Origin: Trypanosoma brucei
Lineage: Eukaryota
DNA: 64,000 nt
Direction: 5' to 3'
NCBI GenBank assembly: GCA_000002445.1
Contig: CM000208.1
Coordinates: forward strand, 2,816,001 to 2,880,000
The position numbers and the translations under genes are program-made. Below are positions 1,343 through 17,644 of this stretch, one piece after another; within the stretch, counting starts at the first letter, position 1, and the number at the start of each line of letters is the position of its first letter. Under the pieces are notes generated by a model, which ran no database searches, was not told where the DNA came from, and saw only the letters and a program-made list of their open reading frames with translations.

Positions 1343-1700
1343 GAATAATGCGGGGCAGAGTATTTTTTTTTTTGCATGTAAGTCGTGAATTCCCGAAGAA
1401 GCTGCATATGCGATTGGCCTGTGTCCGTCGCCCCGCACCATCTCTTCTGTAAATTTCGTAGGAGACTAAACTTGTAAAACAGGGAGAAAGAATAGCGAAA
1501 GCGACCGTGTGAATGCGGGCACAAGTGCATATATACATTGTGAGTACTATCCAAATAAGCGAAAGTTTTATAACGTATTTCAGCGCTTTCCTTGCCTCTT
1601 TGATTTTCCTTTCACTTTCCCTCATTGTGTACTACACACATTTGCTGCGACTTCTCAATGCGAACCGTAACAGTATTAGTTATAGGGGTAGTGTCGTGCG

Positions 1701-2705
1701 ATGACGGATCCTGTGCGCCGCGATCCCACGGAGTTTCTTCGCGTCCTCCGCCGCATGTCGCGAACGACATCATGGCAGAAAACAATGCTCTTTGCTTCAA
1801 AGGGCCGCATGGTGGGTTACAGGCTTACGCGTGAGCACTACAATACTGTTCTCTTCTCCCAGTCACTCTGGGGGCGTGCGTTGGAAATTGTGCGGGTTGT
1901 GCGGGCGATGCAGGAGGACAAGGTGCAACCCAACGGTGCAACGTACTACTACATTGTTAACGGCATGGGAAACGCCGATCACGGCTGGAATTACGACTTC
2001 AGAATAAATCGTCGATTGGAGAAAATACAACACTGGCGTGTTGCATTGGAGGCGTTGGAGGCGTGCGAAGCTAATGGGTTTGACTCAACCGACACTATGC
2101 ACAACTCGGCATTGATTACACTGGTGATCCCAGGTTTTAATAGGTGGCAGCAGGCGAGTCTTTTGTTACAGCGGATGCTCCGGGAGGACCGTCGCATGCA
2201 TCCCACAATGGTGAAGTTTTACCATGACTGTTTAGTACGCAACAACAGACCGCGGGAGGCTAGTTCTCTCATGCGTCTTGCCGCAGAGCGGGGGGTGCAC
2301 GGGTACGAAGACAAATGGGAGGCGGACGTATATAAGGGACGGCCACTAGATAGTGAAGTTATGAATGAGAGCGAAGGAAATGGGCTGCGGCGGCAAGCTT
2401 CCTCCCTCGCTTTCGCTTCACTGATGTTGCGTGGTGATCAGAGGCCGCTGCCAGAGAATTTGCAGGCACTACTGGAGGAAGAAACCACGAGGAATATTGA
2501 AGCGGAGCGCTCCGTTCCCGTACCGTTTTCTGCAGGGCTTCATGCTACTGAAATAAATAGCGTGTTCCGGCCGCGTGTGTACAGACAGTTATGGTACAAG
2601 TGGCAGCACATCGCCAACCGCTACCGGCCCACGGCCGCTCTCAAACGGCGGCAGCTCGCCCCACGGGATTCTCCAACTGGTATTCCGGGGTTTTACCGTA
2701 TTTGA
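1701..2705 (+). CDS. pentatricopeptide-repeat (PPR)-like protein, likely a mitochondrial RNA-binding factor
   Basis: ATG start, 334 aa. Residues HYNTVLFSQSLWGRALEIVRVVRAMQEDKVQPNGATYYYIVNGM fit the 35-aa PPR helical-hairpin consensus (YNtli ... A..l...M...g..P...TY..li.g). Further degenerate repeats follow (WRVALEALEACEANGF, HNSALITL). A T-rich tract lies upstream. Confidence 0.5.
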   Translation: MTDPVRRDPTEFLRVLRRMSRTTSWQKTMLFASKGRMVGYRLTREHYNTVLFSQSLWGRALEIVRVVRAMQEDKVQPNGATYYYIVNGMGNADHGWNYDFRINRRLEKIQHWRVALEALEACEANGFDSTDTMHNSALITLVIPGFNRWQQASLLLQRMLREDRRMHPTMVKFYHDCLVRNNRPREASSLMRLAAERGVHGYEDKWEADVYKGRPLDSEVMNESEGNGLRRQASSLAFASLMLRGDQRPLPENLQALLEEETTRNIEAERSVPVPFSAGLHATEINSVFRPRVYRQLWYKWQHIANRYRPTAALKRRQLAPRDSPTGIPGFYRI

Positions 2706-3674
2706 TGTGGCAGTTGCTGATGTGTGAAGTTGTGTGTGTGTGCGTTATTTCCTGTGTCATTCGCTACTTTTGTGATATAGTCGTTTTTTTTCTTTCACAT
2801 ACTGTCGTCATTAAAGTAATTTGTCTTCGATTTTCGACTCCAAAGCTAACATTTTTGTTCTTGTTCCTTGACGCCGCGAGTATCTCTGCCAGTTCTTCGG
2901 TTTCCTTGAGCGATCGTTGAGCTTATTTGGGTCTTCTTTCATCTGTAATGGAGGCGGGGAAATGCATCGGCCCCATCCACCAGCCGTATTAACCCTGTCT
3001 TTGTGGCTTGGCAGCATTGAGTTGAGGTCGTCTTGCTTTTTTGGTGTGTGTATCCCGTTGTCAGTTCTTGGTGAAGCGGAGAACCGCATATGGGGAAGCA
3101 GTATTGAAAGTCTTCTTCTCTTCACAGTTTTGGTTTTTGTCTTCCGTGTATTCTCGCGGGCGCTGCGACCCCCTCACTCATGTGGTTGGGGTAATCCTCC
3201 AGCCCCCAGAGAGGTGAACGTTTTGTATCTTTAGGCCCCCCCTTTTTTTTTCGGTGCTATGCTCCCCCGATGAACAGATCTTTCTATATCTGTATGTTTT
3301 TCCCCCTCACTCGCATGTCACAGTGCCTACAACGACCATCCGTACATATTATATAGTCATTCTTTCTCCGGCCACTTCCCCTCATCTGATTCTTCAGTCT
3401 TCGAAAGGAAGTCTGCAGAAGCACGGCGTTGTGGAGAGAGTACGGTATAGGAGGAGCGGAAGCGTTACTTCTAACAGTAGGAGGGAGAAAGAGTGAGAAC
3501 TGGGGGAGTAAAGGTATACACGTAAGTCAGTTTGAGGGGCGGGGGAGTTCATACACGTACATGCGGTTGGACAGGTAACTGCACGCACTTACGCATACTG
3601 GCATACACAACCGCTATTGAAAGGGTTTGTAGGGTACATTAGAGAACGGCGACAACATTCTAAAATAAATTTAG

Positions 3675-4907
3675 ATGCCTGCGCTCAGTTGGGCGGATAA
3701 GGCTCGTGGGCTTTCAGCTTCCAGAAGCGGTGGTGCGGATCACATTGTTAGTCGTAAGACTGACACCGCCCTCTCACACACTGGTCTGAAGGGTGAGAAG
3801 AAATATCGACACTACATTGAGGACAGAACTTCAGTTCTACCTCGGGGACTGGAGCCCAACATGTGGGACTTGGTCTGTTCGTACCTTAATGTTCAGGATG
3901 TCAAAAAGTTGAGTGGCACCTGCCGCTTTCTGTGGGAGTTGCTGCGCCCTCGTGACAACGTGTGGCGTGTGCAGTTGGACTACTTTAGGGAAGATATGAA
4001 AAATTTGTATGGTGAGGGCCGCCTACTCTGTACGGAGTTGTTTGTGCCACCATCTTGCAGTGCTTATGAACAAATGAAACTGGAGTTACAGTTATACATA
4101 ATGGACACTCATCGTGAGTGGCAGCTTAAGGACCGTGAAAAAACGGATGGCCCTTACGGTATGTTTTCTTGCCCTTTAACTCTTGCTCATGATCCCTCTA
4201 TCAACGAGGAGGGTTGGCAGGACGAGGATGTTACACCCTTTTCTCAGTTGCGGATAATTCGTGCAGTACGACTTTTCCCTTCGGGGTTATCTACATCCCA
4301 AAGTTTGCGACACAATGGAGGCAGTGGCTCAATCTTCACGCCGAGCGAGTACATGATGTTATGCGAAAATATCAATCATGGTGATTTCACAGGCTCTCGT
4401 TTGGGTGTGCAGGATCACGTAGATGAGGAAGGCGGGTTGTTGCAGTTTGCTCTCATGGAGACTCTCCGTCGTGCCAAGTATCGCAAACCCCCTCGATGCT
4501 CCACGGGTGAAGTGCGCACTTCTTCCCACCTGGTGCTGCGTCATTTTGGCGGTTTGCTGCTATCAATATGCCGTTACGAAGCAGAAGACATTTTAGATTC
4601 CCTTCTCCACAAGCGGGGCCTCGTGGATGACTTCGTTACGTACTGTAACTACAGGGAGCGATCGACAACGAACCGGCCGTGTTTTCCGTTTCCTTGTCAG
4701 TCACGTTACTACATTGCTCCAGAGTTATGCCGAAGGGGCCGTGTGGGTCTTATCATTACGGACTCTGTGCGTTTGCTCGTGGTGGTCGGAAAGGAGCTCG
4801 TGACGCGGGACGATGCGCGATGGGGCAGTGATTTTGCAGCGGCAGCAGCTGCGGGTCGTACGGTATATGGAGGTGGCATGAACCCTCAGCAACCACGATT
4901 GGTGTAG
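3675..4907 (+). CDS. hypothetical protein with an F-box-like motif
   Basis: ATG start, 410 aa. MWDLVCSYLNVQDVKKLSGTCRFLWELL matches an F-box-like L-x-x-L-V-x-x-L ... R-x-V-C-K/R-x-W consensus. The true start could be the internal ATG near 3859 (MWDLV). No other family signature. Confidence 0.45.
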   Translation: MPALSWADKARGLSASRSGGADHIVSRKTDTALSHTGLKGEKKYRHYIEDRTSVLPRGLEPNMWDLVCSYLNVQDVKKLSGTCRFLWELLRPRDNVWRVQLDYFREDMKNLYGEGRLLCTELFVPPSCSAYEQMKLELQLYIMDTHREWQLKDREKTDGPYGMFSCPLTLAHDPSINEEGWQDEDVTPFSQLRIIRAVRLFPSGLSTSQSLRHNGGSGSIFTPSEYMMLCENINHGDFTGSRLGVQDHVDEEGGLLQFALMETLRRAKYRKPPRCSTGEVRTSSHLVLRHFGGLLLSICRYEAEDILDSLLHKRGLVDDFVTYCNYRERSTTNRPCFPFPCQSRYYIAPELCRRGRVGLIITDSVRLLVVVGKELVTRDDARWGSDFAAAAAAGRTVYGGGMNPQQPRLV

Positions 4908-5284
4908 AATACTTTTTGGTGCTTGCGCAAAAGTTTGGTGTGGCACGTGACTACGGTTTCTTTTGACGCACGGATAGGTCAAGGCTCATCTGTGCCTGTT
5001 TTCTGGATTTTTTTTTTTGCTTTGCACACCCTTCACTGAATTTCGACGGTGTGTTTTCCCTCATCGTGGATTACTTGGGTCAGTTGCACATACCTGTAGG
5101 CGGTGCCCTTGCGCCATTATATTCTTTTCCACCCAATCTCATAAACTTTTTACACAGTAGGAAACCTAAGAAACCCGCATATTCGGGTTGAACACCGGCT
5201 TTTGTTTGCCGTGATTCCTGACTCGTGCGGGACGTATTGTTGGGGAGCTTTAGTGGAAAATCGAGAGCATTAGAGTTTCTCTTA

Positions 5285-8200
5285 ATGTACACTACGACAG
5301 CCAAACAGCCCACAGTGGTGGGGGAGCGCGCTTTTTCCATGTCGGAGAAAGTTCTCACGTTCCCTTCCGCCGTAACTTCAATGACAGTTACCCCGGATCA
5401 CGTGTGGCTGGTCATGTCTGACGGAGGTGTGCAGATACGTGATGTTTCCACCACGGAGTTGGTTCACTGCTTCGCTAGCGCATCAAGACCGAGGCGTGTG
5501 GTACGTATATGGTCGATTCTCGCTGTTCCAGATCCTGCTGTGGGGTTACAGGTATGGATGGGGCTGTCCAATGGTGCCGTCGAGGTCTATGACGCACAAA
5601 CTTTCGGCGTATTGCGCCAGCAGACGAAGCACGCGGGTGGGGTATATTGTCTTGCCGAGTTTGGCGGGTACGTGTACTCAGGGAGCAGTGACTTCAAGAT
5701 TGGGCAGTGGTACGCCGCGGACGCACGCCTCGTGCGGATGCTGCACGGTCATAGCAATTATGTGCGCTGTCTTTATGCCGAGGGCAACGCCGTTGTGAGT
5801 GGGTCCGATGATTGTACGGTACGTGTATGGGATGTAGGAAGCGGTGACGCCCAGTTAACGGGACGCTTTCACGACCGCTCGGCCGTGTCTGCTCTGTGTC
5901 GTGTAGGCATTACGATGTGGTCTGGTGATGATAGTGGCCGTGTTGCGGTGTGGAGGCTCGACACATGTGAGGCTTTACACATTCTTCAGGCACATAGCGG
6001 TCGCGTTTCGTCACTGAAGAAGGTTGGATCACGTGTGTACTCTGGTGGCGCAGATGGCGTGATTGCTGTATTTGATGCGGAGGAGGGTCGTTTGCTGAGC
6101 CACGTGAATAATTACCACGGTGTTCGTGTCTCTTCTCTTGTTGTAACGTCGGAGCTGCGACGGTTTTGTATCTGGTCCTCTAGTGCGGACAAGATGATTC
6201 AGTGTTGGCACCAGGATGAGTATACTGTTATGATAGGTGATCAGGAAAGGTTTTCAGAACGTTTTTGGTACGAAACAGGTTCGACACCGTACCGTGAGTT
6301 CCGGGACAGTGTTCTGAAGCACATCGGTAACCTGCGAGAGACACTCAAGATAAGAACGTCCGACAATCCACGTTTAGTAGATATAGTGGGTTTATCTAAC
6401 TCCGCATCGACTGTGGAGGGTTTTCGGAAACGGGAAGCCATACTCAATAAGGAGCTTTCGTCTCTGGAGGGTCGCCAAGCATCACTGGAGAGTCAACTGG
6501 AGCAGTCGAAGGGAGTACTGGAGAATATAGAAAAGGAAACGAGCTTGGTGCTTGGCATTCTTCGTGCAGCTCAAGCTGAGCTTCGATCGCTGGACCCCGT
6601 TTTGCATGGCTCTCTTCTCATGTCGGCAGGAGGCGATGCGAATGGACCGCTTGCAAATATTGTTAGCACGCTATCGGGTCAACCGGCAACAATGACTAAC
6701 GTGCCGAACCCACCTGGCAACTTGGCTGTTCCGACTTCTACCGCTGCAACGACGTCTGCTTGGCCAGCAATTCCCTCAGCAGCTGCGGTGGGTAGTGGAG
6801 CTCAATACGCTGCGTATCAGCCCACTGCAATTCAGGGGCATCCCTTCTATGTAGGCACTCCAGCAACTTATACCCAACCTGCCTCGGTCTCGCACCCAGT
6901 CGCTGGCGTCAGTGGGGCGACAGTGTCCAATTTGCAGAGCCCCGTTCCCCCAGTTCAGGTGTGTGGAACGACTCCTACTGGGGTGTCAACGGCACAAATT
7001 CCTGGTGGCCAGGGTGTGGCCTTTACGGCATTACAACCGGCCGGCACCATGGCTGTGGGAGGACCAACAGGTTCAACAAATGCTGTTCAACAAGTTCCCA
7101 CAGCTGCTACCACACCCAGCGGCACGACTGCCGCAGCAATGGTTGGCGCACTACCGCCTGGTCAGAGCACAGCCACCACATCAGCCCAACCACTCGGAAC
7201 CGCGGCTGCGGGAGCAATGGCTGGCGCACTACCGCCTGGTCAGAGCATAGCCACCACATCAGCCCAACCACTCGGAACCGCGGCTGCGGGAGCAATGGCT
7301 GGCGCACTACCGCCTGGTCAGAGCATAGCCACCACATCAGCCCAACCACTCGGAACCGCGGCTGCAGGAGCAATGGCTGGCGCACTACCGCCTGGTCAGA
7401 GCATAGCCACCACATCAGCCCAACCACTCGGAACCGCGGCTGCGGGAACGATGGCTGGCGCACTACCGCCTGGTCAGAGCATAGCCACCACATCAGCCCA
7501 ACCACTCGGAACCGCGGCTGCGGGAACGATGGCTGGCGCACTACCGCCTGGTCAGAGCATAGCCACCACATCAGCCCAACCACTCGGAACCGCGGCTGCA
7601 GGAGCAATGGCTGGCGCACTACCGCCTGGTCAGAGCATAGCCACCACATCAGCCCAACCACCTAGCACCTTGGGTGTAGGAGGGTCAACAGGGGCTCCAA
7701 CATTTGGACAAAACTTTGCTGTGTCGCTGCAACCTTCGACTGCCACCACCTCCGTTGGGCCGGCTGGGTTAACGTCTTCTGCGGCAAACATGGCAGTTTC
7801 TTCTCAGCCGTTGGGCGCCTCAACTGTCGTTGATGCTTCGGGGCCACTACACAGCGGCCAAAGCCTGACTGGGTCGGCGCATCCGCTCTCTACTCAGGCT
7901 TCCGGAAAACTGATGGGAACGGCATCGGCTGGTGAAAGTGTAACTACGCCCTTTCAACCATTGGGTGCCACTGCAAATGGTAGCTCTTTGGTGTTCACAA
8001 CCGCTGGTCAGAGTTTAACAGCTATACCACAATCTCTTGGGGTCGCATCTACCGGGCAGTCAACGGCACAAATTCCTGGTGGCCAGGGTGTGGCCTTTAC
8101 GGCGTTACAACCGGCTGGCACCATGGCTGTGGGAGGACCAACAGGTTCAACAAATGCTGTTCAACAAGTTCCCACAGCTGCTACCACACCCAGCGGCACG

Positions 8201-8602
8201 ACTGCCGCAGCAATGGCTGGCGCACTACCGCCTGGTCAGAGCATAGCCACCACATCAGCCCAACCACTCGGAACCGCGGCTGCAGGAGGGCCAGCAGGGA
8301 AACCCCCTGTTGAGCAAGATTTTTTATCCACGAAGCGCGTCGTTCCACCCGTTTCTCGTTGTGGAACCGCGCCCCCGTCCAAACACGTCCATTTCGAGCA
8401 GGTAGCTGAAGCTACCACCAGTGGCGGTGTGGTCTACAGGGGCGTAGAATGGACCAATAAAAACGTCGGCAATTATATCCAGCGCCGTTACTACGGGGCG
8501 GAACCAAGTCTTCGGACCCCGGCTCTTGAAAAGCGCAGGAGATTGCAAGGTCGTATGCCGGACGTTAAGTTAGAGCCGTTCAAAAGGAAAGACGAGGGAT
8601 GA
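5285..8602 (+). CDS. WD40-repeat protein with coiled-coil and a long Ala/Thr/Gly/Pro/Gln-rich tandem-repeat domain
   Basis: The track ORF begins with GTG at 5225; the first in-frame ATG is at 5285. The N-terminal ~300 aa holds clear WD40 blades (HGHSNYVRCLYAEGNAVVSGSDDCTVRVWDV, GHSGRVSSL ... SGGADGVIAVFD). A charged coiled-coil segment follows (ELSSLEGRQASLESQLEQSKGVLENIEKE). Next come about seven 78-bp (26-aa) repeats (ALPPGQSIATTSAQPLGTAAAGAMAG) and a duplicated ~230-bp block. Confidence 0.7.
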   Translation: MYTTTAKQPTVVGERAFSMSEKVLTFPSAVTSMTVTPDHVWLVMSDGGVQIRDVSTTELVHCFASASRPRRVVRIWSILAVPDPAVGLQVWMGLSNGAVEVYDAQTFGVLRQQTKHAGGVYCLAEFGGYVYSGSSDFKIGQWYAADARLVRMLHGHSNYVRCLYAEGNAVVSGSDDCTVRVWDVGSGDAQLTGRFHDRSAVSALCRVGITMWSGDDSGRVAVWRLDTCEALHILQAHSGRVSSLKKVGSRVYSGGADGVIAVFDAEEGRLLSHVNNYHGVRVSSLVVTSELRRFCIWSSSADKMIQCWHQDEYTVMIGDQERFSERFWYETGSTPYREFRDSVLKHIGNLRETLKIRTSDNPRLVDIVGLSNSASTVEGFRKREAILNKELSSLEGRQASLESQLEQSKGVLENIEKETSLVLGILRAAQAELRSLDPVLHGSLLMSAGGDANGPLANIVSTLSGQPATMTNVPNPPGNLAVPTSTAATTSAWPAIPSAAAVGSGAQYAAYQPTAIQGHPFYVGTPATYTQPASVSHPVAGVSGATVSNLQSPVPPVQVCGTTPTGVSTAQIPGGQGVAFTALQPAGTMAVGGPTGSTNAVQQVPTAATTPSGTTAAAMVGALPPGQSTATTSAQPLGTAAAGAMAGALPPGQSIATTSAQPLGTAAAGAMAGALPPGQSIATTSAQPLGTAAAGAMAGALPPGQSIATTSAQPLGTAAAGTMAGALPPGQSIATTSAQPLGTAAAGTMAGALPPGQSIATTSAQPLGTAAAGAMAGALPPGQSIATTSAQPPSTLGVGGSTGAPTFGQNFAVSLQPSTATTSVGPAGLTSSAANMAVSSQPLGASTVVDASGPLHSGQSLTGSAHPLSTQASGKLMGTASAGESVTTPFQPLGATANGSSLVFTTAGQSLTAIPQSLGVASTGQSTAQIPGGQGVAFTALQPAGTMAVGGPTGSTNAVQQVPTAATTPSGTTAAAMAGALPPGQSIATTSAQPLGTAAAGGPAGKPPVEQDFLSTKRVVPPVSRCGTAPPSKHVHFEQVAEATTSGGVVYRGVEWTNKNVGNYIQRRYYGAEPSLRTPALEKRRRLQGRMPDVKLEPFKRKDEG
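7130..7665. repeat. about seven near-identical 78-bp in-frame tandem repeats inside the WD40 gene
   Basis: The unit ggcgcactaccgcctggtcagagcatagccaccacatcagcccaaccactcggaaccgcggctgcgggagcaatggct recurs head-to-tail with only single-base variants (gca/gga, acg/gca). This creates the shadow ORFs seen in other frames and on the minus strand. Confidence 0.85.
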
Positions 8603-8860
8603 TAGAGAGTTACAAAGCCGTTAAAAGCGTTTCCGGTAAATGGCGTTAAAAAGTATATAGATATTTTTCCATAGAAATTGTCACGGCTTTTTGTGGTGTT
8701 GTTACTCAGGCTGTTTTTTCCGAGGAAACTTCGGGTATCAGGGTGTTGTGTCTTGATCCACTGACTGCCTTTTCTTTATTTACCATCTGACTAGGAACAG
8801 TAATACTGTAGCCTCTACAGTATTGAGAGCGCGGCGCTGACTAACTAGGTGGAATAGACC

Positions 8861-10461
8861 ATGAGAAGCGCGCAGTTCCCACTTGCAGCAATACCGCCCC
8901 CACCACCATCAGCAGCAGTCCCACAACCACCAATGGCAGCAGTCCCGCAACCACCAATGGCAGCAGTCCCGCAACCTCCAATGGCAACAGTCCCGCAACC
9001 ACCAATGGCAGCAGTCCCACAACCACCATCAGCAGCAGTCCCACAACCACCAATGGCAGCAGTCCCGCAACCACCAATGGCAGCAGTCCCACAACCACCA
9101 TCAGCAGCAGTCCCGCAACCACCAATGGCAGCAGTCCCGCAACCACCAATGGCAGCAGTCCCGCAACCTCCAATGGCAGCAGTCCCGCAACCTCCAATGG
9201 CAACAGTCCCGCAACCACCAAGGCAGCAGTCCCACAACCGCCAATGGCAGCAGTCCCACAACCACCATTGGCAGCAGTCCCACAACCACCAATGGCAGCA
9301 GTCCCACAACCTCCAATGGCAGCAGTCCCACAACCACCAATGGCAGCAGTCCCACAACCACCAATGGCAGCAGTCCCACAACCACCAATGGCAGCAGTCC
9401 CACAACCACCATCAGCAGCAGTCCCACAACCACCATCAGCAGCAGTCCCGCAACCACCAATGGCAGCAGTCCCGCAACCACCAATGGCAGCAGTCCCACA
9501 ACCACCATCAGCAGCAGTCCCACAACCACCAATGGCAGCAGTCCCACAACCACCAATGGCAGCAGTCCCACAACCTCCAATGGCAGCAGTCCCACAACCA
9601 CCAATGGCAGCAGTCCCACAACCTCCAATGGCAGCAGTCCCACAACCACCAATGGCAGCAGTCCCACAACCACCAATGGCAGCAGTCCCGCAACCTCCAA
9701 TGGCAGCAGTCCCGCAACCTCCAATGGCAGCAGTCCCGCAACCTCCAATGGCAGCAGTCCCACAACCACCAAAGGCAGCAGTCCCACAACCACCAATGGC
9801 AGCAGTCCCGCAACCACCAATGGCAGCAGCGCGACAGTCACCGCTGGTGGTGGCCCCGGCGTGCCCACCAACTTCCGATGGGCTAAATGCTACTGATGGC
9901 ACGGGTAGTGGATTATCAAAAAGTCTTGTAATACCATCTGCTGCCGGGGGGTTGGCAGTATCATTGTCCGAGACTCAGCAAACTCGTGGATACGGAAGAG
10001 AAACGGAGGAGATTTTTTCAGGTAACCACCCCACTAGCAACCCCAATTTACTGTCTCATTCACCTTTGCTTGCAGGTCTTCCTTCCTGGAACATCCCAAG
10101 TGCTTCAAGTTCTACTTGGGCGGGGTCGACAGTAACTCAAGTCTTTGTGCCCCAGCTGGATGCTGTCCCAGCGCGCAGCGTCATCTTACCGACTGCGGTG
10201 TGGTTTGACGACAGACTAGAGCGTGTAGTTGTTCCTCGAGTGAATGCCACTTCTTCGGTGCCAAAGGGATTACAAGAGGAAGGTTCTAGGCAGCGGTTAA
10301 AGCCGTCATTCAAACGAGTGAAGGACAAATACCTCTGGCGGCTGCCACCGTCGAAAGAGGGTATAGCAAGTGAGTTGTGGCGTGGAGTTTACTGGAAGCA
10401 TGTTGATGTGCATCGTTACGTTTCCAGGCGGTATTTTGGGGGACCGCCACCGGTTGAATAA
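8861..10461 (+). CDS. proline-rich repeat protein with about 38 copies of a 24-bp repeat encoding (M/S)AAVPQPP; frame interrupted by a 1-nt deletion near 9222
   Basis: ATG at 8861 follows a normal intergenic region and opens MRSAQFPLAAIPPPPPSAAVPQPP.... Near 9217-9231 the repeat reads ccaccaaggcagcag instead of ccaccaatggcagcag. This shifts the reading frame into that of track ORF 9244..10461, which carries the unique C-terminal domain ending ...RRYFGGPPPVE. The gene is therefore either a pseudogene or, more likely, carries an assembly or sequencing indel within the repeat array. Confidence 0.5.
8897..9830. repeat. 24-bp in-frame tandem repeat array of about 38 units
   Basis: Units are gcagcagtcccacaaccaccaatg and variants (ccgcaa/ccacaa, cct/cca, atg/tca). 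It is coding on + only. The long minus-strand and alternate-frame ORFs 8841..9902, 8845..9405, 8883..9896, 9101..9871 and 9508..9813 are artefacts of this array. Confidence 0.9.
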
Positions 10462-10796
10462 CACTAGCTGTAGCCGAAGATGTGTTACTTGTTCATCGTT
10501 TCTTTTGTTTGTTGCTGAAAAGTTATCTGAGTGATCAAAGCATAGGTTGATTGCTGTTTTCTGTGTTTTTGTCTTCCTGTGAACTCCCACATCCTCGTGC
10601 AGTCGCTTCTTCACACCTCTTCTGGGGAGTTGACTTCCCTTTAAGTGCCCAGTAGTATCGTGGAGGTCTGTGTTTCGTAAGTCTCTGTCTTCAGGGTGTT
10701 AACGACATATAAATACATGTACGTGAGTATTGCCTAGAAGTGAACGACGATTTTAATTACATATTAACATATTCCAGAGTGTAATCAGGCTCTGGG

Positions 10797-11729
10797 ATGC
10801 TGCGCCACACATCACGGAACAATGCTTTGCACGCATTTGTTCGCTCACCGCATTACCGAACTATTCCGAGCGCTGGACCAAATGGGATTGTTGTCAACCG
10901 AGATATGCTCGTTCACCAGTTCAGAGACTTCTACAAAACACTTCAACATTGCTCTCTTGTCGACAAAGTCCATTTGATGTCCGAGAGACCCTCGGTAGAA
11001 GCACTACGGGTAGCGGACCAAATGGTTTCCATCGGTGCCACATTTTTAGAGATGCCACTGACAGGTATGGAACATCGCGCGACAGAATTTATGGAGTCAA
11101 TGCGGTATGTTCGTGGTGCTGGTGGACCCTCTACTCTTGCCTCGTACTTGCAAGATACGGAGAATTGCCGGTGTAATAGCGGCGATGTGGTGTGTTTACC
11201 GAATGGCATAGCAGTTGGCCACGGTCCGAGAACAAACGCAGTGGCTCATACTACGCTGAAACAATTGTTCGAAGTGAAAGATGACCAATTTTCTTTTGAT
11301 GTCTTCACTTTAGAACAGGAGGGTGATGCGCCACCGCTTGGGGACTATTTCGGTTTTGCTGGGAGCAACGTATTACTCACTTGGAAAGATGAGCACGGTT
11401 TACTTGCTGTAGATCAATACCAACAGAAACAGCCCCACACGGAGATGAATGTAGTTTATCTTGAACCTGGTTGCCATTTTTTATCTTTCTATGGTGTCGA
11501 CCACACGATAGATGTTTTAGTTCAGAAGGGCTACGAACGCTCAATGGACAGCATTGCTGCTGCGGGTTTGAATCCTATTCCTGTTCAGTGGTCGGAGATG
11601 GACAAACTTGGGATATCGATGAGGGCCGCAGTTCTTCCACTTAAATTCTTCAAGGCGAATGTTGGTGGCATGTTGTCGAGGAACAAGAGTCGTGGAGCCC
11701 GATGGCAGACGCATCAACTGCAGAAATAA
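10797..11729 (+). CDS. conserved hypothetical protein
   Basis: ATG start, 310 aa, coding-like composition, with a pyrimidine-rich tract upstream. I cannot assign a family. A weak resemblance to the amidinotransferase/DDAH fold is not supportable without a search. Confidence 0.5.
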   Translation: MLRHTSRNNALHAFVRSPHYRTIPSAGPNGIVVNRDMLVHQFRDFYKTLQHCSLVDKVHLMSERPSVEALRVADQMVSIGATFLEMPLTGMEHRATEFMESMRYVRGAGGPSTLASYLQDTENCRCNSGDVVCLPNGIAVGHGPRTNAVAHTTLKQLFEVKDDQFSFDVFTLEQEGDAPPLGDYFGFAGSNVLLTWKDEHGLLAVDQYQQKQPHTEMNVVYLEPGCHFLSFYGVDHTIDVLVQKGYERSMDSIAAAGLNPIPVQWSEMDKLGISMRAAVLPLKFFKANVGGMLSRNKSRGARWQTHQLQK

Positions 11730-12391
11730 TGGCTGAGGAGACTGTTTGTAGTTTAGCGCGTGCGTGTATGTGTGTGCTCATGGTTGTGGTTAGTACACAA
11801 GAGGGAACATGATGGCAAAGAAGGGCATTTGTTATTCAAAGCAAACCACGAACGTATCAGATCGAATAAACACAGTTCATTTCAGTCACTTTTATCTTGG
11901 GTAACTAACAATTTCATTGAAAGCGGCATGGCTACACATTTGTTTGTGTAGTCCAGTGGGGGAGACATACAAGTTGGGAAAGTTAAGGCATCGATGATGG
12001 CTCTGATTTTAAGCTTTTTTTGTGCCGACCTTGTTATGGACTTGCCACGTTACTGCTGATTGCTGTCAGTTATTGATGTAAGGAAAGGGAGAGTATTTTT
12101 CTTTGTGAAGGTACGTGACCTCTCTGGCTCTGCATTCCCCCTTATTGTTTCTCCTCCTTCTGTTTCGTCACTCGTTGCGTGACACACTTAGGGTGCCGGC
12201 TCGCTCACCTTCATACCCTTTCTCTGGTGTGGCGGGGGCCAATAAAGGGAGCTGTCGGCCGGGCTTGCATTAGCCGAGGGAAAGGGCAAAGGAAGACGCC
12301 CACATTGGTATTCGCAGTACCCTTGAGGTGGCTTCCTTTTAAGAGAAGGACGGGGTGAGTACCAGGCGTGCGCTGGGGAAGCAAGGCAGGT

Positions 12392-14521
12392 ATGACAATA
12401 AGCAGCCCGTGCAACCACGAATATCACCTATGGACCCTCTTCAAACTGCATTCAAAACCTCTTGGTGCTGTGACTAGTGGGGCTCATCACGGACGTTACC
12501 TGACGGAGGATGGTTTTCGGGCCATTGTAGATTCCCTCGTCGGTATGGGTCTACTAGACGGGGGCCACGTGGCAGAAAGGGAGGGAACTGAGAGCAGGAG
12601 TGACAAGAGCGTGGGCGCCGTTGTTTTGTATGGTGAGGTCGAAATTGCAACTGTGCCTTCTACCTCACCTCGTGCAAATGCGTCCACCGAGAGTGCTGGA
12701 GTTTCTGGTGAGGATGCGTTAGAGAGGGTGGATATCAGTCTGAGCATGGACTCGGCCCCTATCTGTTCCTTACCGCACCCAAACGTTGTTATCTCTGAGG
12801 TGGTTCCCCCGGTACGATTACAATCCGAAACCAAATCTTTTGGTGACACCATTGTGCCAGATGCGGAGAGCCATGCGACTGCGGAATTACCGGCTTCGCC
12901 CTGGCAGGTGGACAAGGCGGAGCCTGAGGGGAGCGGGTGGAAGCAGGGGATGGAACCTAGGGAGGACACCGTTCACAGAGGTGTTCACGGAATGCGTATG
13001 CCCTCTGACAATGGCAACCGACATCAGTTGCCAGAGAACATGACAGAAAGGTCGAAGGAGCAAGTGCAGAACACCGATGTTCGACGACGCTTGGTTGATA
13101 GTTATGTGTCTGGCGACTCCCGACAGTCGCAGAAGTGTGTGCAGTGGACTAGACGTGGCGGAGCCGTGTACCCCAATAACCACCTACGAAGTGGAGTTGA
13201 GGGTGAAACGTCTTCCTTTAATGGCACTGGCCTTGACGCTGTAATATCACTTGTGAAGTCTGACAAGACTTCGTGCTTCTCTGATATGGCATTAGACTCG
13301 GCGGCGCTGGACCAGCTACTTCCAAGAAGCGTCGAAAACGATGCGTTAGATAAAGCCAATGATAACATGTTTGTGATGATTGAGGAGGCGGCGGCACAAC
13401 AAGATTCTCTTCACGGTTTCTCACGTGTGAAGTTCTTTCCGGCTGAAAATACCGCGAATAGGCCTGACATTAGAAATCGCGGTCCACGTTTATCGACGCC
13501 ACCGCGTCGTCCTAGAAACCCGGCAGTGATTCTTCCATCTCCCCATGTATCGATCACCGATGAAAGGTATAAGAGGCCAGGTGCGTCACCGAGGCCGTCG
13601 CAATCATCTTTCAGGTCACCGCGCCTTTCCCCTAATAATAGAGGTTCTTCTGTCCGTTTTCATCCATCTACAAGCTTCCAGACTCCAGTCGGTAGACACG
13701 GCGGGGAGGGAACTGGTGACGGACTGGCCGCTGCTGCGACCAAGACCGGTACCCGAGGCGCCGCTTTCGTGGGTCCACGAGCATCAATGGATGAAGAAAG
13801 GACGGCGTTATCAGAGGATGTGAATACTGACGAGAGAAGACAAGTTCAGCAGCTGATGCCCAGACGATCTATCAATACCAGTGGTAGCGGAAGTTGTGGG
13901 TACACCTCGAGAGGCAGCGAAGGATTTCCACAACCTCCGGGGCGCCGCATGGTTGGCGGAGTTACCTCGTTAGAGTCCGCGCAGCCCAGACACCTGCCAC
14001 GGAACGCCGTGGGTTCAACACAAGACGGAATGGGCATGGGGTCGGCTGTGGCCTTACCGCAGTACCGGAGAAAAGCATTACTCACATCGGATGCAACGTC
14101 GGCCGATCACACCTTTGGGGAATGGAGCTCCCTGAGCCCCCAAGGAGTCATGCACCATGGTGCGTGTGCCCCTTTCCGAGGTTCCAACACAAATAGTTCA
14201 CTCAGCGGTGGGCAAGGAAGCGGGACAATGACGAGTGACCCACGAAGATTTGTTGCGAGACCTGCTGTGGGACCCACGGCACCACTGCCACTTCTATTGG
14301 GGCCCCGTGGCCGACGCCGCAGCGCATCAGTTCCATGTTGCCCTCACGGCACGGAGCCTTCGCCACGACCGCCAAGGTCGCTCTCGAAACGTGCCCGTCT
14401 TCGTGCCGAGCGGAAGTGGAGGCCGATGGAGCCACCCGCTGTCCCCCACACAAGAGCCCGCAGTTGGGGTTTCCGTGCCGGAGGAAATGTTACGGCACCG
14501 CTAATCCCAACCTGGGAGTAG
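12392..14521 (+). CDS. hypothetical Ser/Pro/Arg-rich low-complexity protein
   Basis: The track ORF starts with GTG at 12368; the first in-frame ATG is at 12392, giving ~709 aa. It is the longest ORF in the region and the only one with coding-like composition. The C-terminal half is highly S/P/R/G-rich (RPRNPAVILPSPHVS ... SPRPSQSSFRSPRLSPNNRGSS). Confidence 0.45.
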   Translation: MTISSPCNHEYHLWTLFKLHSKPLGAVTSGAHHGRYLTEDGFRAIVDSLVGMGLLDGGHVAEREGTESRSDKSVGAVVLYGEVEIATVPSTSPRANASTESAGVSGEDALERVDISLSMDSAPICSLPHPNVVISEVVPPVRLQSETKSFGDTIVPDAESHATAELPASPWQVDKAEPEGSGWKQGMEPREDTVHRGVHGMRMPSDNGNRHQLPENMTERSKEQVQNTDVRRRLVDSYVSGDSRQSQKCVQWTRRGGAVYPNNHLRSGVEGETSSFNGTGLDAVISLVKSDKTSCFSDMALDSAALDQLLPRSVENDALDKANDNMFVMIEEAAAQQDSLHGFSRVKFFPAENTANRPDIRNRGPRLSTPPRRPRNPAVILPSPHVSITDERYKRPGASPRPSQSSFRSPRLSPNNRGSSVRFHPSTSFQTPVGRHGGEGTGDGLAAAATKTGTRGAAFVGPRASMDEERTALSEDVNTDERRQVQQLMPRRSINTSGSGSCGYTSRGSEGFPQPPGRRMVGGVTSLESAQPRHLPRNAVGSTQDGMGMGSAVALPQYRRKALLTSDATSADHTFGEWSSLSPQGVMHHGACAPFRGSNTNSSLSGGQGSGTMTSDPRRFVARPAVGPTAPLPLLLGPRGRRRSASVPCCPHGTEPSPRPPRSLSKRARLRAERKWRPMEPPAVPHTRARSWGFRAGGNVTAPLIPTWE

Positions 14522-15250
14522 CCGAAGTTTTCTGCCCAAATGGGGGAAAAGAATCGGTGTGTGTGTGTGTATGTATGGGGAGACATTGCCTGGGAAAATA
14601 CGCGAATGTTATGGCAGCTGCTGCAACGCGAGTAACTTTGAAAAGTTATAGAAAACAGGGACAATATGTTGTAATCATGCTACTTTGTCCTTCGGCTCCT
14701 ACGAGCAAAGAACTGACCCTCCTCGTTCCTGCCGGACAGTTGGCCATTGTGCTATCCGTACGTGTCGGGCACCGTCGAATCCGGCTCCTTGCATCACAGT
14801 AGCTGTTCTTTCTATATATATTTTTGCTCTTGCTACCGAATAGATGATGGAACTTCAACGTAAAGGCGTGAAAGGGCCAGCGGCTATGGGATGTGGTGCA
14901 TCCCATTAGGCTGGAATACGCAAGTGTACCCTTTTGTACTGTGTCGGATTGTAGTTGCTACGTACCCATATCCTAAAGAGTTTCAAATTATTTTCCATAT
15001 TTTACTCTCTCCAGGAAGCCAATGGAATTCTCATTTGGGCTTCTATTATTACCCTTTGATTTTTGAGACTGTTGACACCCTGTGACATTGCTTATATGTA
15101 TGTATTAACTGTGTGAGCAAGCATGCCCCCCCCTCGTGATGTATAGCAATACATTTGCATGTATAATCGACGTTATGTTGTAACCAGTTTTCTATGTAAA
15201 GTTCTACTGATTTCCTCATCGGTTATCCTGAAAGGGAAGCCTCGTTAGAG

Positions 15251-16201
15251 ATGGTGGTGGGACACCGGGTTCTCACAACTGCCCCGCGGCAGTCTAGTTA
15301 CACTAGGGTTGGGTTGGTGAGACCAGCTCTTCTCAGTTTATCTGTCACCAGTGTTTCTACCGTGCAATACGTGGGGGATGGTGCGTGTTCGTATTGCTGC
15401 TGCAGTAGGCGTTACATTCGCACCATCATCACACCACGCCCTGCTGTTACTACACTTGTATACATTGACAAGTATGGACGGCCGGTTCGAAATGGAACGG
15501 AGACGGATGTTTCACTGATACGCACTCGAGACAACCAATTTTACCTGCAACGCGTGCTGCCCGGCGGGGAGGTGATACGCTGGCGTGCCCCTGGGCTAGA
15601 CCATCTGAAGCATGTTACCAACTTTGAGACGTACAACCTTAATGAGATTGACGAGTATGGTGGGGTTATAATCCCGGCTGGTGTGATGCCTACAACACCC
15701 AACGACCCCCCGAGTTATCACGATGCGGTGTATTACATTAACCGCATGGAGGCCACGGAAAAGATCACTCGCAAGACCAGACGCCGCTGGCACCGCCGCC
15801 TCTATGCCCATTGGAAGGAGAGCCCAGATAAATTCTTTAACTACTCCATAAGCGCCTACGGGGTTCCGTTCATTGTACTCTTGTGGTTAACCATCCGTGG
15901 TTTTCACAGCATAAAGAACAACAAACCATTCTGGGACGTTAATGTGTATGGAAAAACAGATGAGGAGTCCGATGCACGCGACCCTTGGCTGCGGCTGATG
16001 CGGTTCTCAGACCGCCACCCCGAGCACGAGGGGCTTGACCTGACTGTCACAATGATGTCCCCAGGACAGTCGCGGCTGTCAAACTCTCGTGCAGAGCTGC
16101 GGGAGTCGGACTTTACGGACCCACATTTTCACAGTGAGTTGTGGTGGAAGCTACGGCACGTGCGGTACTACGGGCACTGGCCAAAGGGCTTGTCGGAGTA
16201 A
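15251..16201 (+). CDS. hypothetical protein with one predicted transmembrane helix and a PPSY motif
   Basis: ATG start, 316 aa. Hydrophobic stretch YGVPFIVLLWLTIRGF. PPxY-type motif NDPPSYHD. No recognisable family. Confidence 0.45.
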   Translation: MVVGHRVLTTAPRQSSYTRVGLVRPALLSLSVTSVSTVQYVGDGACSYCCCSRRYIRTIITPRPAVTTLVYIDKYGRPVRNGTETDVSLIRTRDNQFYLQRVLPGGEVIRWRAPGLDHLKHVTNFETYNLNEIDEYGGVIIPAGVMPTTPNDPPSYHDAVYYINRMEATEKITRKTRRRWHRRLYAHWKESPDKFFNYSISAYGVPFIVLLWLTIRGFHSIKNNKPFWDVNVYGKTDEESDARDPWLRLMRFSDRHPEHEGLDLTVTMMSPGQSRLSNSRAELRESDFTDPHFHSELWWKLRHVRYYGHWPKGLSE

Positions 16202-16793
16202 GTAAAGGTGATGGTGATTTATTGTGAAAACAGAGACAATGCCGGTAGTGTGCGCAGAGGAAGGCACACAAGAGGGGAGAAAAACTGGGCAAGGGGAAGT
16301 CATCTCATTTATCGTTTGTAGTTGTTAATCAGCTTGCATTTGCTTTGTTACGCATGCAGTTGCATCCGGGAATCCTCCTCCTGAGTCAAATGCAGTCAAG
16401 CAGGTACACACGGGGCAGCGAAGGTAATAGGGTGAAAATTGTAACTGCCATCGTCTTTTTGTTGCTTACCATCATTTTTTTTTTTGTGGATGGAGGTCTG
16501 CACTACTTCATGAGTGTTTGCACTGGCTCACATTGGCAAAAGGATGATTTTCCTTCCAATGCTTTCATTCTTTCCCTTTGAATCATCTCCTTCATTTGAG
16601 ATCATCATTCCCCTTTCTTTTACCGCTCCCTACACGCTCGTCCCACTGCCATCACTCCATATTCTGACTTCCACGTGGTTAAGAGCGGTATGTATGAATA
16701 TATAGTTTTTGCTTTCACACCTCTTCCCCGGCATCTTTACCTTTTTCTATTGTGTGTGAAGTATCCTGTTTTGTTTCCCAATTGCTTTCAGAA

Positions 16794-17297
16794 ATGACCC
16801 AAAACATTATTCGTCGCATCTTTGGCAATCGTGAACTGCCGGAGAACCTTAGCGGTAGCGAGTACGAGCGCTACATGCAGGAAAACTTTCCCAAGTGGAT
16901 TGATGAGTTTGAAAAGGGCGGGTTTCTTGAGGCAACAAAACTCCCAGCCATAAAGAGTGAGAGGGATTTCTTGAGCAAACTCATTGAACACAAAGACGAA
17001 ATTATGGTGGTTAAGTACTGGAAGCACGGATGCATCCCGTGCCTCTCATTGGCGGAAATGTACAAACAGGTATCGGAGCAATGCAAAAAAGAAAACCGCC
17101 GTATTGCGTGGTACAGTGTGAATACAAAAGATGTTAGCGCGCGATCGTTAGTTGACTACCAACTCGTTAACGGAACCCCCACAGTCCAGACATTCAGTAG
17201 GATGAAACAGGTGGGTAAAGAAATTCGAGCAATAAGTGCGGAGGAGCTAATGAGGGAGCTTTCTTTACGCGAGGCTGCTCTGAATACAGAGAGTTAG
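16794..17297 (+). CDS. thioredoxin-fold protein with a CxxC (HGCIPC) active-site-like motif
   Basis: The track ORF starts with GTG at 16752; the first in-frame ATG is at 16794. VVKYWKHGCIPCLSLAEMYKQV matches the thioredoxin W-C-x-x-C region (canonical VVDFWAEWCGPCK). A long pyrimidine-rich tract lies upstream at 16560-16790. Confidence 0.55.
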   Translation: MTQNIIRRIFGNRELPENLSGSEYERYMQENFPKWIDEFEKGGFLEATKLPAIKSERDFLSKLIEHKDEIMVVKYWKHGCIPCLSLAEMYKQVSEQCKKENRRIAWYSVNTKDVSARSLVDYQLVNGTPTVQTFSRMKQVGKEIRAISAEELMRELSLREAALNTES

Positions 17298-17644
17298 GTT
17301 GAATGGAGGAGACCACTCTTCCCCATGTCTTTTCCTTACGGAAAGGCTCTGATCTTCACACGAAATCAAACTGTTCTTTTTTAGGAAGTAACGGTGGCAC
17401 ATAGTAGGCGGCGTTATGTATGGATGTCGTCCTGATATTGTCCCTGGTTGCACTGTTCGGAACACACCCCCACCTCTCATCTTCTACCTCTGTGCCCTTT
17501 TAGCTCAACAGTCAGGACACAATTCGTGTCGTTATGGACAGGGTGGTCAAATTTTCACACACATATGTATATATATATATATATTCCTTGCATTTTCCCT
17601 TTTCCCTGGGTTAGATACGCTCTTCGGAGCTGTGACGTTAATAA

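What the first reader, a model, noticed from the sequence alone, without database searches (positions are those of the whole stretch)
8300..10461. Two adjacent low-complexity repeat proteins share a C-terminal motif
The WD40/AT-rich-repeat protein ends ...GGVVYRGVEWTNKNVGNYIQRRYYGAEP... The neighbouring proline-repeat protein ends ...SELWRGVYWKHVDVHRYVSRRYFGGPPPVE. Ungapped alignment gives RGV-x-W-x4-V-x2-Y-x2-RRY-(Y/F)-G, about 11 identities in 26 residues. Both also have long internal tandem repeats immediately upstream. This suggests a shared C-terminal module (for targeting or interaction) carried by two neighbouring genes. They may be ancient tandem paralogues whose central regions were overwritten by different repeat expansions.
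Basis: seen in the sequence. Interest (0 to 1): 0.5.

Follow-up and report, generated by a model that had tools for sequence, protein, structure and literature searches.

The report
Shared tail motif in trypanosome neighbours
Two neighbouring Trypanosoma brucei genes, a WD40 scaffold protein related to a flagellar transition-zone protein and a small proline-rich protein, carry a real, ancient, unannotated 30-residue C-terminal motif found only in kinetoplastids; what it does is still unknown.

Summary
The two C-termini align without gaps (11/25 identical, BLASTP E=3e-7; shuffle Z=9.4; profile-profile E=1.4e-9). The window is T. brucei-group chromosome 10, just upstream of RESC5.

- **Gene 1** is a WD40 + coiled-coil + repeat protein (family A). 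It is a tandem paralogue of family B, which I infer to be TZP50.
- **Gene 2** is a small proline-rich disordered protein (family C).
- **Conservation:** both families keep their own version of the motif across trypanosomatids. A has WTNxNVGNYIQRRYYGAxPSLR. C has WRGVYWKHVDVHRYVARRYFGxPPPxE, always 22-23 residues from the C-terminus.
- **Gene order:** it is always B-A-C-RESC5. Bodo saltans has one WD40 gene with one motif and no gene C.
- **Distribution:** a joint motif profile searched against 1.84 billion proteins found only these two families. There is no Pfam or PDB match.
- **Structure:** AlphaFold gives a low-confidence short helix inside long disorder.

Best reading: the motif was inherited from a single ancestral WD40 gene, and gene C is a tail-only duplicate. 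It most likely acts as a helical docking peptide for a shared partner. That function is inferred, not shown. The finding is real and new, but of modest interest.

In this assembly gene 1 is a B/A fusion and gene 2 carries a 1-nt frameshift. Both are probably artefacts or strain-specific alleles.

The parts
5285..8602 (+). Gene 1: WD40 + coiled-coil + low-complexity repeat protein carrying the A-type motif. It is the family A orthologue, inferred to be Tb927.10.11850. In this assembly its first ~72 codons and the shared WD40 stretch come from paralogue B (TZP50-like).
   Evidence: ORF. Pfam WD40 PF00400 52 bits against a cutoff of 27. Orthologues across Kinetoplastea. Comparison with P0002 and P0004 and with loci L001/L002.
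5348..6214 (+). WD40 beta-propeller of gene 1 (aa 22-310).
   Evidence: AlphaFold2 strands E22-E310, with pLDDT mostly above 90. Pfam beta-propeller families. Nearest solved sequences are FBXW7-type propellers.
5503..6122 (+). 620-bp stretch that is 99.2% identical between paralogues B and A in T. equiperdum. In the window it is the junction where B and A are fused; about 1.8 kb is missing relative to L001/L002.
   Evidence: blastn: window 1-6122 matches L001 4715-10838, and window 5503-7349 matches L001 12050-13903. B nt 219-838 against A nt 218-835 is 99.2% identical.
6290..6589 (+). Predicted coiled-coil helices of gene 1 (aa 336-435).
   Evidence: AlphaFold2 helices H336-360, H362-372 and H377-435, pLDDT 57-88.
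7128..7661 (+). 78-bp (26-aa) tandem repeat, 6.8 copies, Ala/Thr/Gly/Pro-rich, inside the disordered region of gene 1.
   Evidence: TRF, 97% matches. AlphaFold2 pLDDT below 50 across aa 437-1054.
8432..8506 (+). A-type copy of the shared motif: VYRGVEWTNKNVGNYIQRRYYGAEP.
   Evidence: Conserved in 28 family A sequences. Core KNVGNYIQRRY predicted helical at low confidence.
8507..8599 (+). Family-A-specific conserved basic tail after the motif (SLRTPALEKRRRLQGRMPDVKLEPFKRKDEG). It has no counterpart in gene 2.
   Evidence: Alignment A2. Second short predicted helix at aa 1078-1088.
8861..10461 (+). Gene 2: small proline-rich, disordered family C protein, inferred to be Tb927.10.11860 and annotated elsewhere as 'Cornifin (SPRR) family, putative'. 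The likely true start is ATG 8861 (MRSAQFPLAAIPPPPPSAAVPQPP...). A 1-nt deletion at about 9222 breaks the frame, so the longest intact ORF is 9244-10461.
   Evidence: ORFs. Repeat register shift CCAATGG to CCAAGG at 9221-9223. The N-terminus type M-x-S-x-x-PPPPP is shared with orthologues. Frameshifts lie at different places in L001 and L002.
8912..9829 (+). 24-bp (8-aa, AAVPQPPM) tandem array, 38 copies, in gene 2.
   Evidence: TRF, 93% matches. Unit listing.
10375..10458 (+). C-type copy of the shared motif at the extreme C-terminus: LWRGVYWKHVDVHRYVSRRYFGGPPPVE, followed by the stop codon.
   Evidence: In 22 of 22 family C sequences the central W lies 22-23 residues from the end. Predicted helix at aa 105-123 of the 130-aa tail, pLDDT about 61.
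10797..11729 (+). RESC5 (Tb927.10.11870), the synteny anchor immediately downstream. It is not part of the motif system.
   Evidence: Window 9050-14000 aligns at 98.4% to L001 15121-20076. That stretch contains the gene with the precomputed Pfam PF26170 RESC5 hit. RESC5 = Tb927.10.11870 according to PMC12936278.

Best explanation
The two peptides are diverged copies of one ancestral C-terminal element.

Origin (well supported). A single ancestral kinetoplastid gene, as still seen in Bodo saltans, encoded a WD40 propeller, a coiled coil, a Pro/Ala/Thr-rich disordered region, the motif, and an R-(R/K)-x-x-F end. At the base of the trypanosomatids it gave rise to three tandem genes:
- B: WD40 + coiled coil + proline repeats. 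It lost the motif. In T. brucei it is the 453-aa protein I infer to be the transition-zone marker TZP50.
- A: WD40 + coiled coil + repeats + motif. This is gene 1.
- C: a tail-only gene with a proline-rich region and the motif. This is gene 2.

Shown here: homology of the motif, its purifying selection in both families, the fixed gene order B-A-C-RESC5, and restriction to kinetoplastids.

Function (inferred, about 0.35). The motif is a basic, aromatic, amphipathic short helix embedded in long disorder. It most likely folds on binding one shared partner. This would let the small protein C dock at the same site as scaffold A, plausibly at the flagellar base where paralogue B resides, either as a co-recruited adaptor or as a competitor.
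For: Homology: BLASTP E=3e-7; shuffle Z=9.4; hhalign probability 96%, E=1.4e-9.

Conservation: 28 A-type and 22 C-type instances. W, V, Y and R are invariant and the following Y nearly so across both families. The C-type motif sits at a fixed distance from the C-terminus. In the C motif 8-13 of 27 codons differ synonymously between species while the peptide is retained.

Synteny: the order 410-aa gene, B, A, C, RESC5 holds in T. equiperdum, T. b. gambiense, T. melophagium, T. cruzi, T. theileri, L. major and Angomonas. A and C carry consecutive locus tags in T. grayi and consecutive protein accessions in Phytomonas. Each trypanosomatid locus has exactly two motif copies and Bodo has one. In Bodo a single WD40 gene lies 267 bp upstream of RESC5.

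The Bodo-type motif (…YVQERYHRKVTPLFGPP) combines the A-like core with the C-like FGPP(P) ending.

Exclusivity: the joint profile gave 32 hits at E<=1e-3 among 1.84e9 representatives. All are A or C family except one weak repeat protein.

Structure: both AlphaFold2 runs place the only secondary structure of the tails on the motif core (H105-123 in C, H1059-1069 in A), surrounded by disorder. Helical hydrophobic moment is 0.32-0.34, against 0.04-0.12 for a strand; net charge is +3 to +4.

Link to TZP50: Tb927.10.11840 is TZP50 (PMC6529878) and RESC5 is Tb927.10.11870 (PMC12936278). By gene numbering, and by size (453 aa is about 50 kDa), B is TZP50.
Against: - No localisation, interaction or phenotype data for A or C were found.
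- The TZP50 assignment rests on gene numbering and size, not on a sequence record.
- TZP50 itself lacks the motif, so a transition-zone location for A and C is only guilt by paralogy.
- AlphaFold2 confidence on the motif is low (pLDDT 50-62), and the motif did not dock with confidence on the propeller.
- Homology between A and C is limited to 30 columns. That C is a truncated duplicate, rather than an unrelated gene that acquired the 3' end of A, therefore rests on adjacency, element order and the low-complexity proline similarity to B tails, which is weak evidence.
Confidence: 0.6

Rival explanations
1. The motif is not a protein-docking peptide. It is a basic-aromatic amphipathic helix that anchors both proteins directly to a polyanionic surface, such as microtubule/tubulin tails or acidic membrane at the flagellar pocket or transition zone.
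For: Net charge is +3 to +4, with many Trp/Tyr/Phe residues. The hydrophobic moment fits a helix. The helix is predicted at low confidence inside disorder. The family A tail that follows is also very basic (EKRRRLQGR…KRK).
Against: Conservation is very strict and position-specific (DVHRY, RRY and G-x-PPP-x-E are invariant in C; NVGNYIQRRYYG in A). That degree of specificity is more typical of a stereospecific protein interface than of electrostatic surface binding. There are no experimental data either way.
Confidence: 0.2
2. Gene 2 is not a truncated paralogue. An unrelated proline-rich gene captured the 3' end of the neighbouring WD40 gene by illegitimate recombination, early in trypanosomatid evolution.
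For: Similarity is confined to 30 columns even with long flanks. Gene C has conserved blocks of its own with no counterpart in A (VVPxVVxYNEQxQHVVVP, NxY(L/D)(W/L)xPSPS).
Against: The order of elements (proline-rich region, then motif) matches the 3' half of the Bodo single gene. Proline repeats of the same PPxxA(A/S)VP type sit on the tail of paralogue B. No gene C was found without the motif or away from A. In practice the two scenarios are hard to tell apart, and both give a homologous motif.
Confidence: 0.12
3. The motif is a fragment of a known folded domain. An AP2/ERF-like 'YRGV…W' beta-sheet DNA-binding domain was my first recollection; an IQ-type calmodulin site ('YIQRR') was the second.
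For: There is a superficial match: YRGVEW against the AP2 YRGV-x-W element, and IQRRYYG against IQxxxRG.
Against: No Pfam family matched at E<=1 to 5 on either tail or on five orthologues. No AP2 or IQ proteins appear among the 32 profile hits in 1.84e9 proteins. There is no PDB match. In family C only 22-23 residues follow the central W, too few for an AP2 fold. AlphaFold2 predicts helix, not strands. Family C has V-A/S where an IQ motif needs I-Q, and Y where it needs R/K.
Confidence: 0.04
4. The similarity is chance, a compositional artefact of two low-complexity proteins, or the product of recent gene conversion between neighbours in T. brucei.
For: Both proteins are repeat-rich, and gene conversion does act in this locus (a 620-bp stretch is 99% identical between B and A).
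Against: The motif lies in non-repetitive sequence. Z=9.4 against composition-preserving shuffles. The motif is conserved in orthologues of both genes from Leishmania to Trypanosoma. In-register DNA identity of the two motif regions is only 34/75. A-to-C identity is about the same in T. brucei, T. cruzi and L. major (9-11 of 25, read).
Confidence: 0.02

Closest known systems
TZP50 (Tb927.10.11840 / LmxM.32.1230), flagellar transition-zone marker protein of T. brucei and L. mexicana (Dean et al. 2016, cited in PMC6529878)
   Same: It is the tandem paralogue (family B) of gene 1, with the same WD40 propeller and coiled-coil architecture. In T. brucei a 620-bp stretch is 99% identical to gene 1. 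The first ~290 residues of gene 1 in this window are identical to the 453-aa B protein of T. equiperdum.
   Different: B proteins lack the motif. They end in proline repeats and RRMSF (Leishmaniinae), or are truncated after the coiled coil (T. brucei). Equating B with TZP50 is inferred from gene numbering and size, not from a sequence record.
Cornifin / SPRR family (Pfam PF02389), the database name attached to gene 2 in T. equiperdum
   Same: Both have proline-rich octapeptide repeats. The Pfam match covers the AAVPQPPM array (28.1 bits).
   Different: The score is below the Pfam gathering cutoff (34.8). The match is purely compositional. Orthologues with few repeats have no Pfam hit. The conserved part of the family is the C-terminal motif, which SPRR proteins do not have. 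The name is a misannotation.
Basalin (Tb927.7.3130), an 'evolutionarily unconstrained' transition-zone protein recognised across kinetoplastids only through synteny (PMC6392502)
   Same: It is a comparable situation. A fast-evolving, largely disordered kinetoplastid protein has orthologues that single-sequence search misses: one search found only T. equiperdum. Synteny and a profile recover them.
   Different: Gene C retains one nearly invariant 28-residue peptide and shares it with a neighbouring scaffold protein. There is no evidence that gene C is a transition-zone or basal-plate protein.
Short linear motifs / molecular recognition features (MoRFs) shared by paralogues
   Same: The motif is about 25-30 residues long, sits in long disorder, is predicted to form a helix, is terminal, and is far better conserved than its flanks.
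   Different: It is longer and more strictly conserved than most catalogued linear motifs. No partner is known and no catalogue entry exists.

Membership tests
Kinetoplastid WD40/coiled-coil family A (orthologues of gene 1) | N-terminal WD40 propeller followed by a coiled coil | tested here: met
   Pfam WD40 52 bits against a cutoff of 27. AlphaFold2 propeller at aa 22-310 with pLDDT above 90, and helices at 336-435.
Kinetoplastid WD40/coiled-coil family A (orthologues of gene 1) | C-terminal W-T/V-N-x-N-V-G-x-Y-I-Q-R-R-Y-Y-G-A-x-P-S-L-R followed by a basic tail | tested here: met
   Window 8432-8599. The same element occurs in 28 sequences from Trypanosoma, Leishmaniinae, Phytomonas, Angomonas and Bodo-like organisms.
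Kinetoplastid WD40/coiled-coil family A (orthologues of gene 1) | Syntenic position between paralogue B and gene C, upstream of RESC5 | tested here: inconclusive
   The positions of C and RESC5 are as expected. In this window, however, B and A are fused into one ORF, unlike L001/L002. This is either a strain-specific deletion or an assembly collapse.
Trypanosomatid family C (orthologues of gene 2) | C-terminus W-R-G-x-Y-W-x-H-x-D-V-H-R-Y-(I/V)-(A/S)-R-R-Y-x-G-x-P-P-P-x-E, 22-23 residues from the central W to the end | tested here: met
   Window 10375-10458. Holds in 22 of 22 family members.
Trypanosomatid family C (orthologues of gene 2) | Proline-rich N-terminus (M-x-S-x-x-PPPPP…AxVPxPP) and no WD40 domain | tested here: met
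   Met if translation starts at ATG 8861 (MRSAQFPLAAIPPPPPSAAVPQPP). The frame is broken by a 1-nt deletion at about 9222. Orthologues are shown.
Cornifin/SPRR (PF02389) | Score at or above the Pfam gathering threshold (34.8 bits) | tested here: not met
   28.1 bits, on the proline repeat only. Orthologues give no hit.
AP2/ERF DNA-binding domain (PF00847) | About 60-aa three-stranded sheet plus helix, detectable with the Pfam model | tested here: not met
   No Pfam match at E<=5. Only 22-23 residues follow the W in family C. A helix is predicted. No AP2 proteins appear among the profile hits.
IQ calmodulin-binding motif | [FILV]Q-x3-[RK]G-x3-[RK] | tested here: not met
   Read directly from the sequences. 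A has IQRRYYGAEPS (Y where R/K is required). C has V(A/S)RRY(F/R/C)G (no Q).
TZP50 itself (Tb927.10.11840) | 453-aa WD40 + coiled-coil protein ending …TTVPVNTTNTV, localised at the transition zone | tested here: not met
   Gene 1 shares only its first ~290 residues with the 453-aa protein (P0004), then follows family A. Localisation cannot be tested with these tools.

The most novel reading that the evidence does not exclude
Gene C is a 'liberated tail' of an ancestral transition-zone/basal-body WD40 scaffold. It kept only the proline-rich region and the docking helix. It now acts as a soluble regulator that competes with, or bridges to, scaffold A for one receptor site at the flagellar base. 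The 30-residue element would then be a new kinetoplastid-specific targeting or docking motif. It could be used to find the receptor, and as a portable tag for that compartment.
Probability: 0.2. Interest if true: 0.5.

Novelty: new member of a known kind. Interest (0 to 1): 0.3.

Why it matters
- It gives two 'conserved hypothetical' kinetoplastid protein families their only recognisable shared feature, and ties both to the TZP50 gene cluster.
- It corrects a misleading 'cornifin' annotation.
- It supplies a precise, testable peptide (W…V..Y(I/V)xRRY(Y/F)G) for mutagenesis, pull-down or complex prediction in organisms where flagellar-base biology is actively studied.
- It is a clean example of a tail-only gene surviving next to its full-length paralogue for the whole of trypanosomatid evolution.
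- It does not overturn anything. Its value is as a lead for cell biologists working on the trypanosome flagellum base.

Tried and rejected
1. A single-sequence search with the 211-aa non-repeat tail of gene 2 found only the identical T. equiperdum protein. Orthologues had to be reached through synteny and a profile.
2. Pfam scans of both tails and of five family C orthologues found nothing, and no AP2, IQ or WH2 hit.
3. A PDB sequence search with the motif profile found nothing. The same search with the WD40 part found only generic propellers such as FBXW7 and WDR5.
4. I tested whether homology extends beyond the motif, using hhalign with 150-aa flanks. It does not.
5. AlphaFold2 of the family C tail and of full-length gene 1 gave low confidence on the tails and no confident docking of the motif on the propeller. 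I did not run fold searches, because the confidence on the tails is too low for fold matches to mean anything.
6. Literature searches for Tb927.10.11850, Tb927.10.11860, the Leishmania IDs and 'cornifin' found nothing on A or C. I checked whether A might be TZP103.8. It is not: that protein is Tb927.11.5750. Dean et al. 2016 (PMC5024643) is not held in the library.
7. My first DNA comparison of the two motif regions was one codon out of register. It was redone in register.
Full report
**What is at the coordinates.** The window is from the Trypanosoma brucei group. The non-repeat part of gene 2 is 100% identical to a T. equiperdum protein. Window 1-14000 aligns at 98-99% to chromosome-sized contigs of T. 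equiperdum and T. b. gambiense.

- **Gene 1** (ATG 5285 to stop 8602) encodes four parts: a WD40 propeller (aa 22-310, AlphaFold2 pLDDT above 90), a coiled coil (aa 336-435), about 600 disordered residues that include a 78-bp tandem array (7128-7661), and a conserved C-terminal tail.
- **Gene 2** holds a 24-bp array (8912-9829, 38 copies of AAVPQPPM), followed by about 210 non-repetitive residues.

**Is the resemblance more than chance?** Yes.
- BLASTP of the two tails gives 11/25 identities without gaps, 31 bits, E=3e-7.
- The Smith-Waterman score exceeds all 2000 composition-preserving shuffles (Z=9.4). With the whole of gene 1 as search space, Z is still 4.8.
- Alignments of orthologues from each family match each other with hhalign probability 96%, E=1.4e-9.
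- A regex for the motif core finds exactly two sites in the six-frame translation of the 64-kb window.

**Orthologues keep it.** A search with gene 1, with its repeats removed, recovered orthologues throughout Kinetoplastea. Those of family A end with …W-T/V-N-x-N-V-G-x-Y-I-Q-R-R-Y-Y-G-A-x-P-S-L-R plus a basic tail.

A single-sequence search with gene 2 found nothing outside the T. brucei group. Fetching the syntenic loci showed a small gene between family A and RESC5 in T. melophagium, T. theileri, T. cruzi, L. major and Angomonas. Each of these ends …W-R-G-x-Y-W-x-H-x-D-V-H-R-Y-(I/V)-A-R-R-Y-x-G-x-P-P-P-x-E. A profile of these sequences then recovered T. rangeli, T. conorhini, L. tarentolae and others.

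In 22 of 22 family C sequences the central Trp lies 22-23 residues from the C-terminus. Between species, 8-13 of the 27 motif codons differ synonymously while the peptide is kept, so selection acts on the protein. The two motif regions in the window share only 34/75 bases in register, which excludes recent gene conversion.

**The locus is a three-gene cluster.** The order everywhere is: 410-aa gene, B, A, C, RESC5. T. grayi has consecutive locus tags, and Phytomonas consecutive protein accessions, for A and C.
- **B** is a second WD40 + coiled-coil paralogue. In most species its tail carries proline repeats (PPTASVPAPP, AAVPPPP) and ends RRMSF (Leishmaniinae); it has no motif. These proline repeats match the gene 2 array in tblastn, though this is low-complexity similarity.
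- **Bodo saltans** has a single WD40 gene 267 bp upstream of RESC5. It has one motif (GGAQWLKSNVAEYVQERYHRKVTPLFGPP), ends RKYF, and has no gene C. Its motif combines the A-like core with the C-like FGPP(P) ending.

The simplest history is one ancestral gene that was duplicated in the trypanosomatid stem into B (motif lost), A (motif kept) and C (3' part only). Homology between A and C cannot be traced beyond 30 columns. That C is a truncated duplicate, rather than a gene that captured the 3' end of A, is therefore inferred from adjacency and element order.

**Distribution.** A joint 33-position profile of both motif types was searched against 1.84 billion representative proteins. It gave 32 hits at E<=1e-3. 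All are family A or family C kinetoplastid proteins, apart from one weak hit to an unrelated repeat protein. There is no Pfam family and no PDB chain. The 'Cornifin (SPRR)' name carried by gene 2 in T. equiperdum comes from a sub-threshold compositional match to the proline array (28.1 bits against a cutoff of 34.8).

**Structure and likely mechanism.** AlphaFold2 of the family C tail (10 sequences) gives pLDDT 51. The only element is a helix over RGVYWKHVDVHRYVSRRYF, with pLDDT about 61. AlphaFold2 of full-length gene 1 (42 sequences) gives a confident propeller and coiled coil and about 600 disordered residues. It also gives a short helix on KNVGNYIQRRY and another on the basic tail, both at pLDDT about 50, with no confident docking on the propeller.

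The peptide is basic (+3 to +4), rich in Trp, Tyr and Phe, and has a helical rather than strand-like hydrophobic moment. The residues invariant across both families are W, V, Y and R, with the following Y nearly so. I therefore read the motif as a recognition helix that folds on binding. The strictness of its conservation favours a specific protein partner over generic electrostatic binding, but nothing here shows that.

**Link to known biology.** RESC5 is Tb927.10.11870 (PMC12936278). TZP50, a transition-zone marker, is Tb927.10.11840 with orthologue LmxM.32.1230 (PMC6529878). From gene numbering and size (453 aa is about 50 kDa), B is TZP50, A is Tb927.10.11850 and C is Tb927.10.11860. This is inferred, not verified. 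No paper in the library mentions A or C. A location at the flagellar base for A and C is thus only a hypothesis from paralogy.

**Assembly oddities in this window.**
- *Gene 1 is a B/A chimera.* Its first ~290 residues equal the 453-aa B protein of T. equiperdum and the rest equals A. Window 1-6122 matches L001 4715-10838, and window 5503-7349 matches L001 12050-13903. About 1.8 kb (the 3' part of B, the intergenic region and the 5' end of A) is therefore missing, at a 620-bp stretch that is 99.2% identical between B and A. This is either a real deletion allele or an assembly collapse.
- *Gene 2 is split by a frameshift.* The 24-bp array has a 1-nt deletion at about 9222 (CCAATGG becomes CCAAGG). 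It separates the likely start codon (ATG 8861, with an N-terminus like that of orthologues) from the ORF carrying the motif. T. equiperdum and T. b. gambiense have frame breaks at other positions, which points to sequencing errors in the array.

**Verdict.** The motif is an undescribed, kinetoplastid-restricted C-terminal element. Its function is not established. The finding is a useful lead rather than a surprise.

Noticed in passing
window 5285-6200 (junction segment 5503-6122): Gene 1 in this assembly is a fusion of paralogue B (TZP50-like N-terminus MYTTTAKQ…) and paralogue A. About 1.8 kb present in T. equiperdum and T. b. gambiense is missing, at a 620-bp stretch that is 99.2% identical between the two genes. 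It is either a real recombinant or deletion allele, or an assembly collapse.
   Followed up: yes
window 9221-9223 (within array 8912-9829): A single-base deletion (ATG becomes A-G) in one 24-bp unit shifts the frame. ATG 8861, whose N-terminus looks orthologous, is therefore out of frame with the motif-bearing ORF 9244-10461. T. equiperdum and T. b. gambiense assemblies break the frame at other positions, so this is probably a sequencing or assembly error in the array.
   Followed up: partly
L004 (T. cruzi) 10001-17831; L001 10001-14844: Gene conversion between the tandem WD40 paralogues appears to be recurrent. In T. cruzi the 580-aa B-type and the 1252-aa A-type proteins share an identical N-terminal ~290 residues, and there are three WD40 genes in a row. 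In T. brucei only the central 620 bp is homogenised.
   Followed up: partly
P0028-P0046 (family B), L007 Bodo 10001-12637, L008 Angomonas 10001-12961: The extreme C-terminus R-R-x-S-F (RRMSF in Leishmaniinae B, RRGSF in Angomonas A, RKYF/RRHF in Bodo-like proteins) is conserved. It looks like a basophilic-kinase (PKA-type R-R-x-S-hydrophobic) site. T. brucei B and A lack it.
   Followed up: no
L006 13443-14663 (L. major gene C); P0091, P0093-P0097, P0105, P0107; L008 13255-13938: Leishmaniinae and Angomonas family C proteins share an extra conserved N-terminal block, KPGG(V/I)ALDMS(D/N)LFGPPK…KKSLPPWERKK, after a polyproline start. It is absent from Trypanosoma C. It faintly recalls a polyproline + WH2-like actin-regulator layout, but Pfam found nothing.
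   Followed up: no
window 6917-7150 and 8030-8269: Gene 1 contains a second, dispersed internal duplication (STAQIPGGQGVAFTALQPAGTMAVGGPTGSTNAVQQVPTAATTPSGTTAAAM…) flanking the 78-bp array and the following low-complexity region. The repeat unit type (…T(S/A)xQPLG(T/G)…) is shared with T. cruzi and T. melophagium family A proteins, with very different copy numbers.
   Followed up: no
window 10797-11729: My hmmscan against the local Pfam copy did not report RESC5 for this ORF (only a weak GAS2 hit). The precomputed annotation of the 98%-identical gene in L001/L002 lists PF26170 RESC5, so the two Pfam versions apparently differ.
   Followed up: partly
window 36000-44000: G+C drops to 0.33-0.43 here, against about 0.45-0.57 elsewhere. 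All ORFs of 250 aa or more outside the proline repeat array are on the + strand (one polycistronic unit).
   Followed up: no
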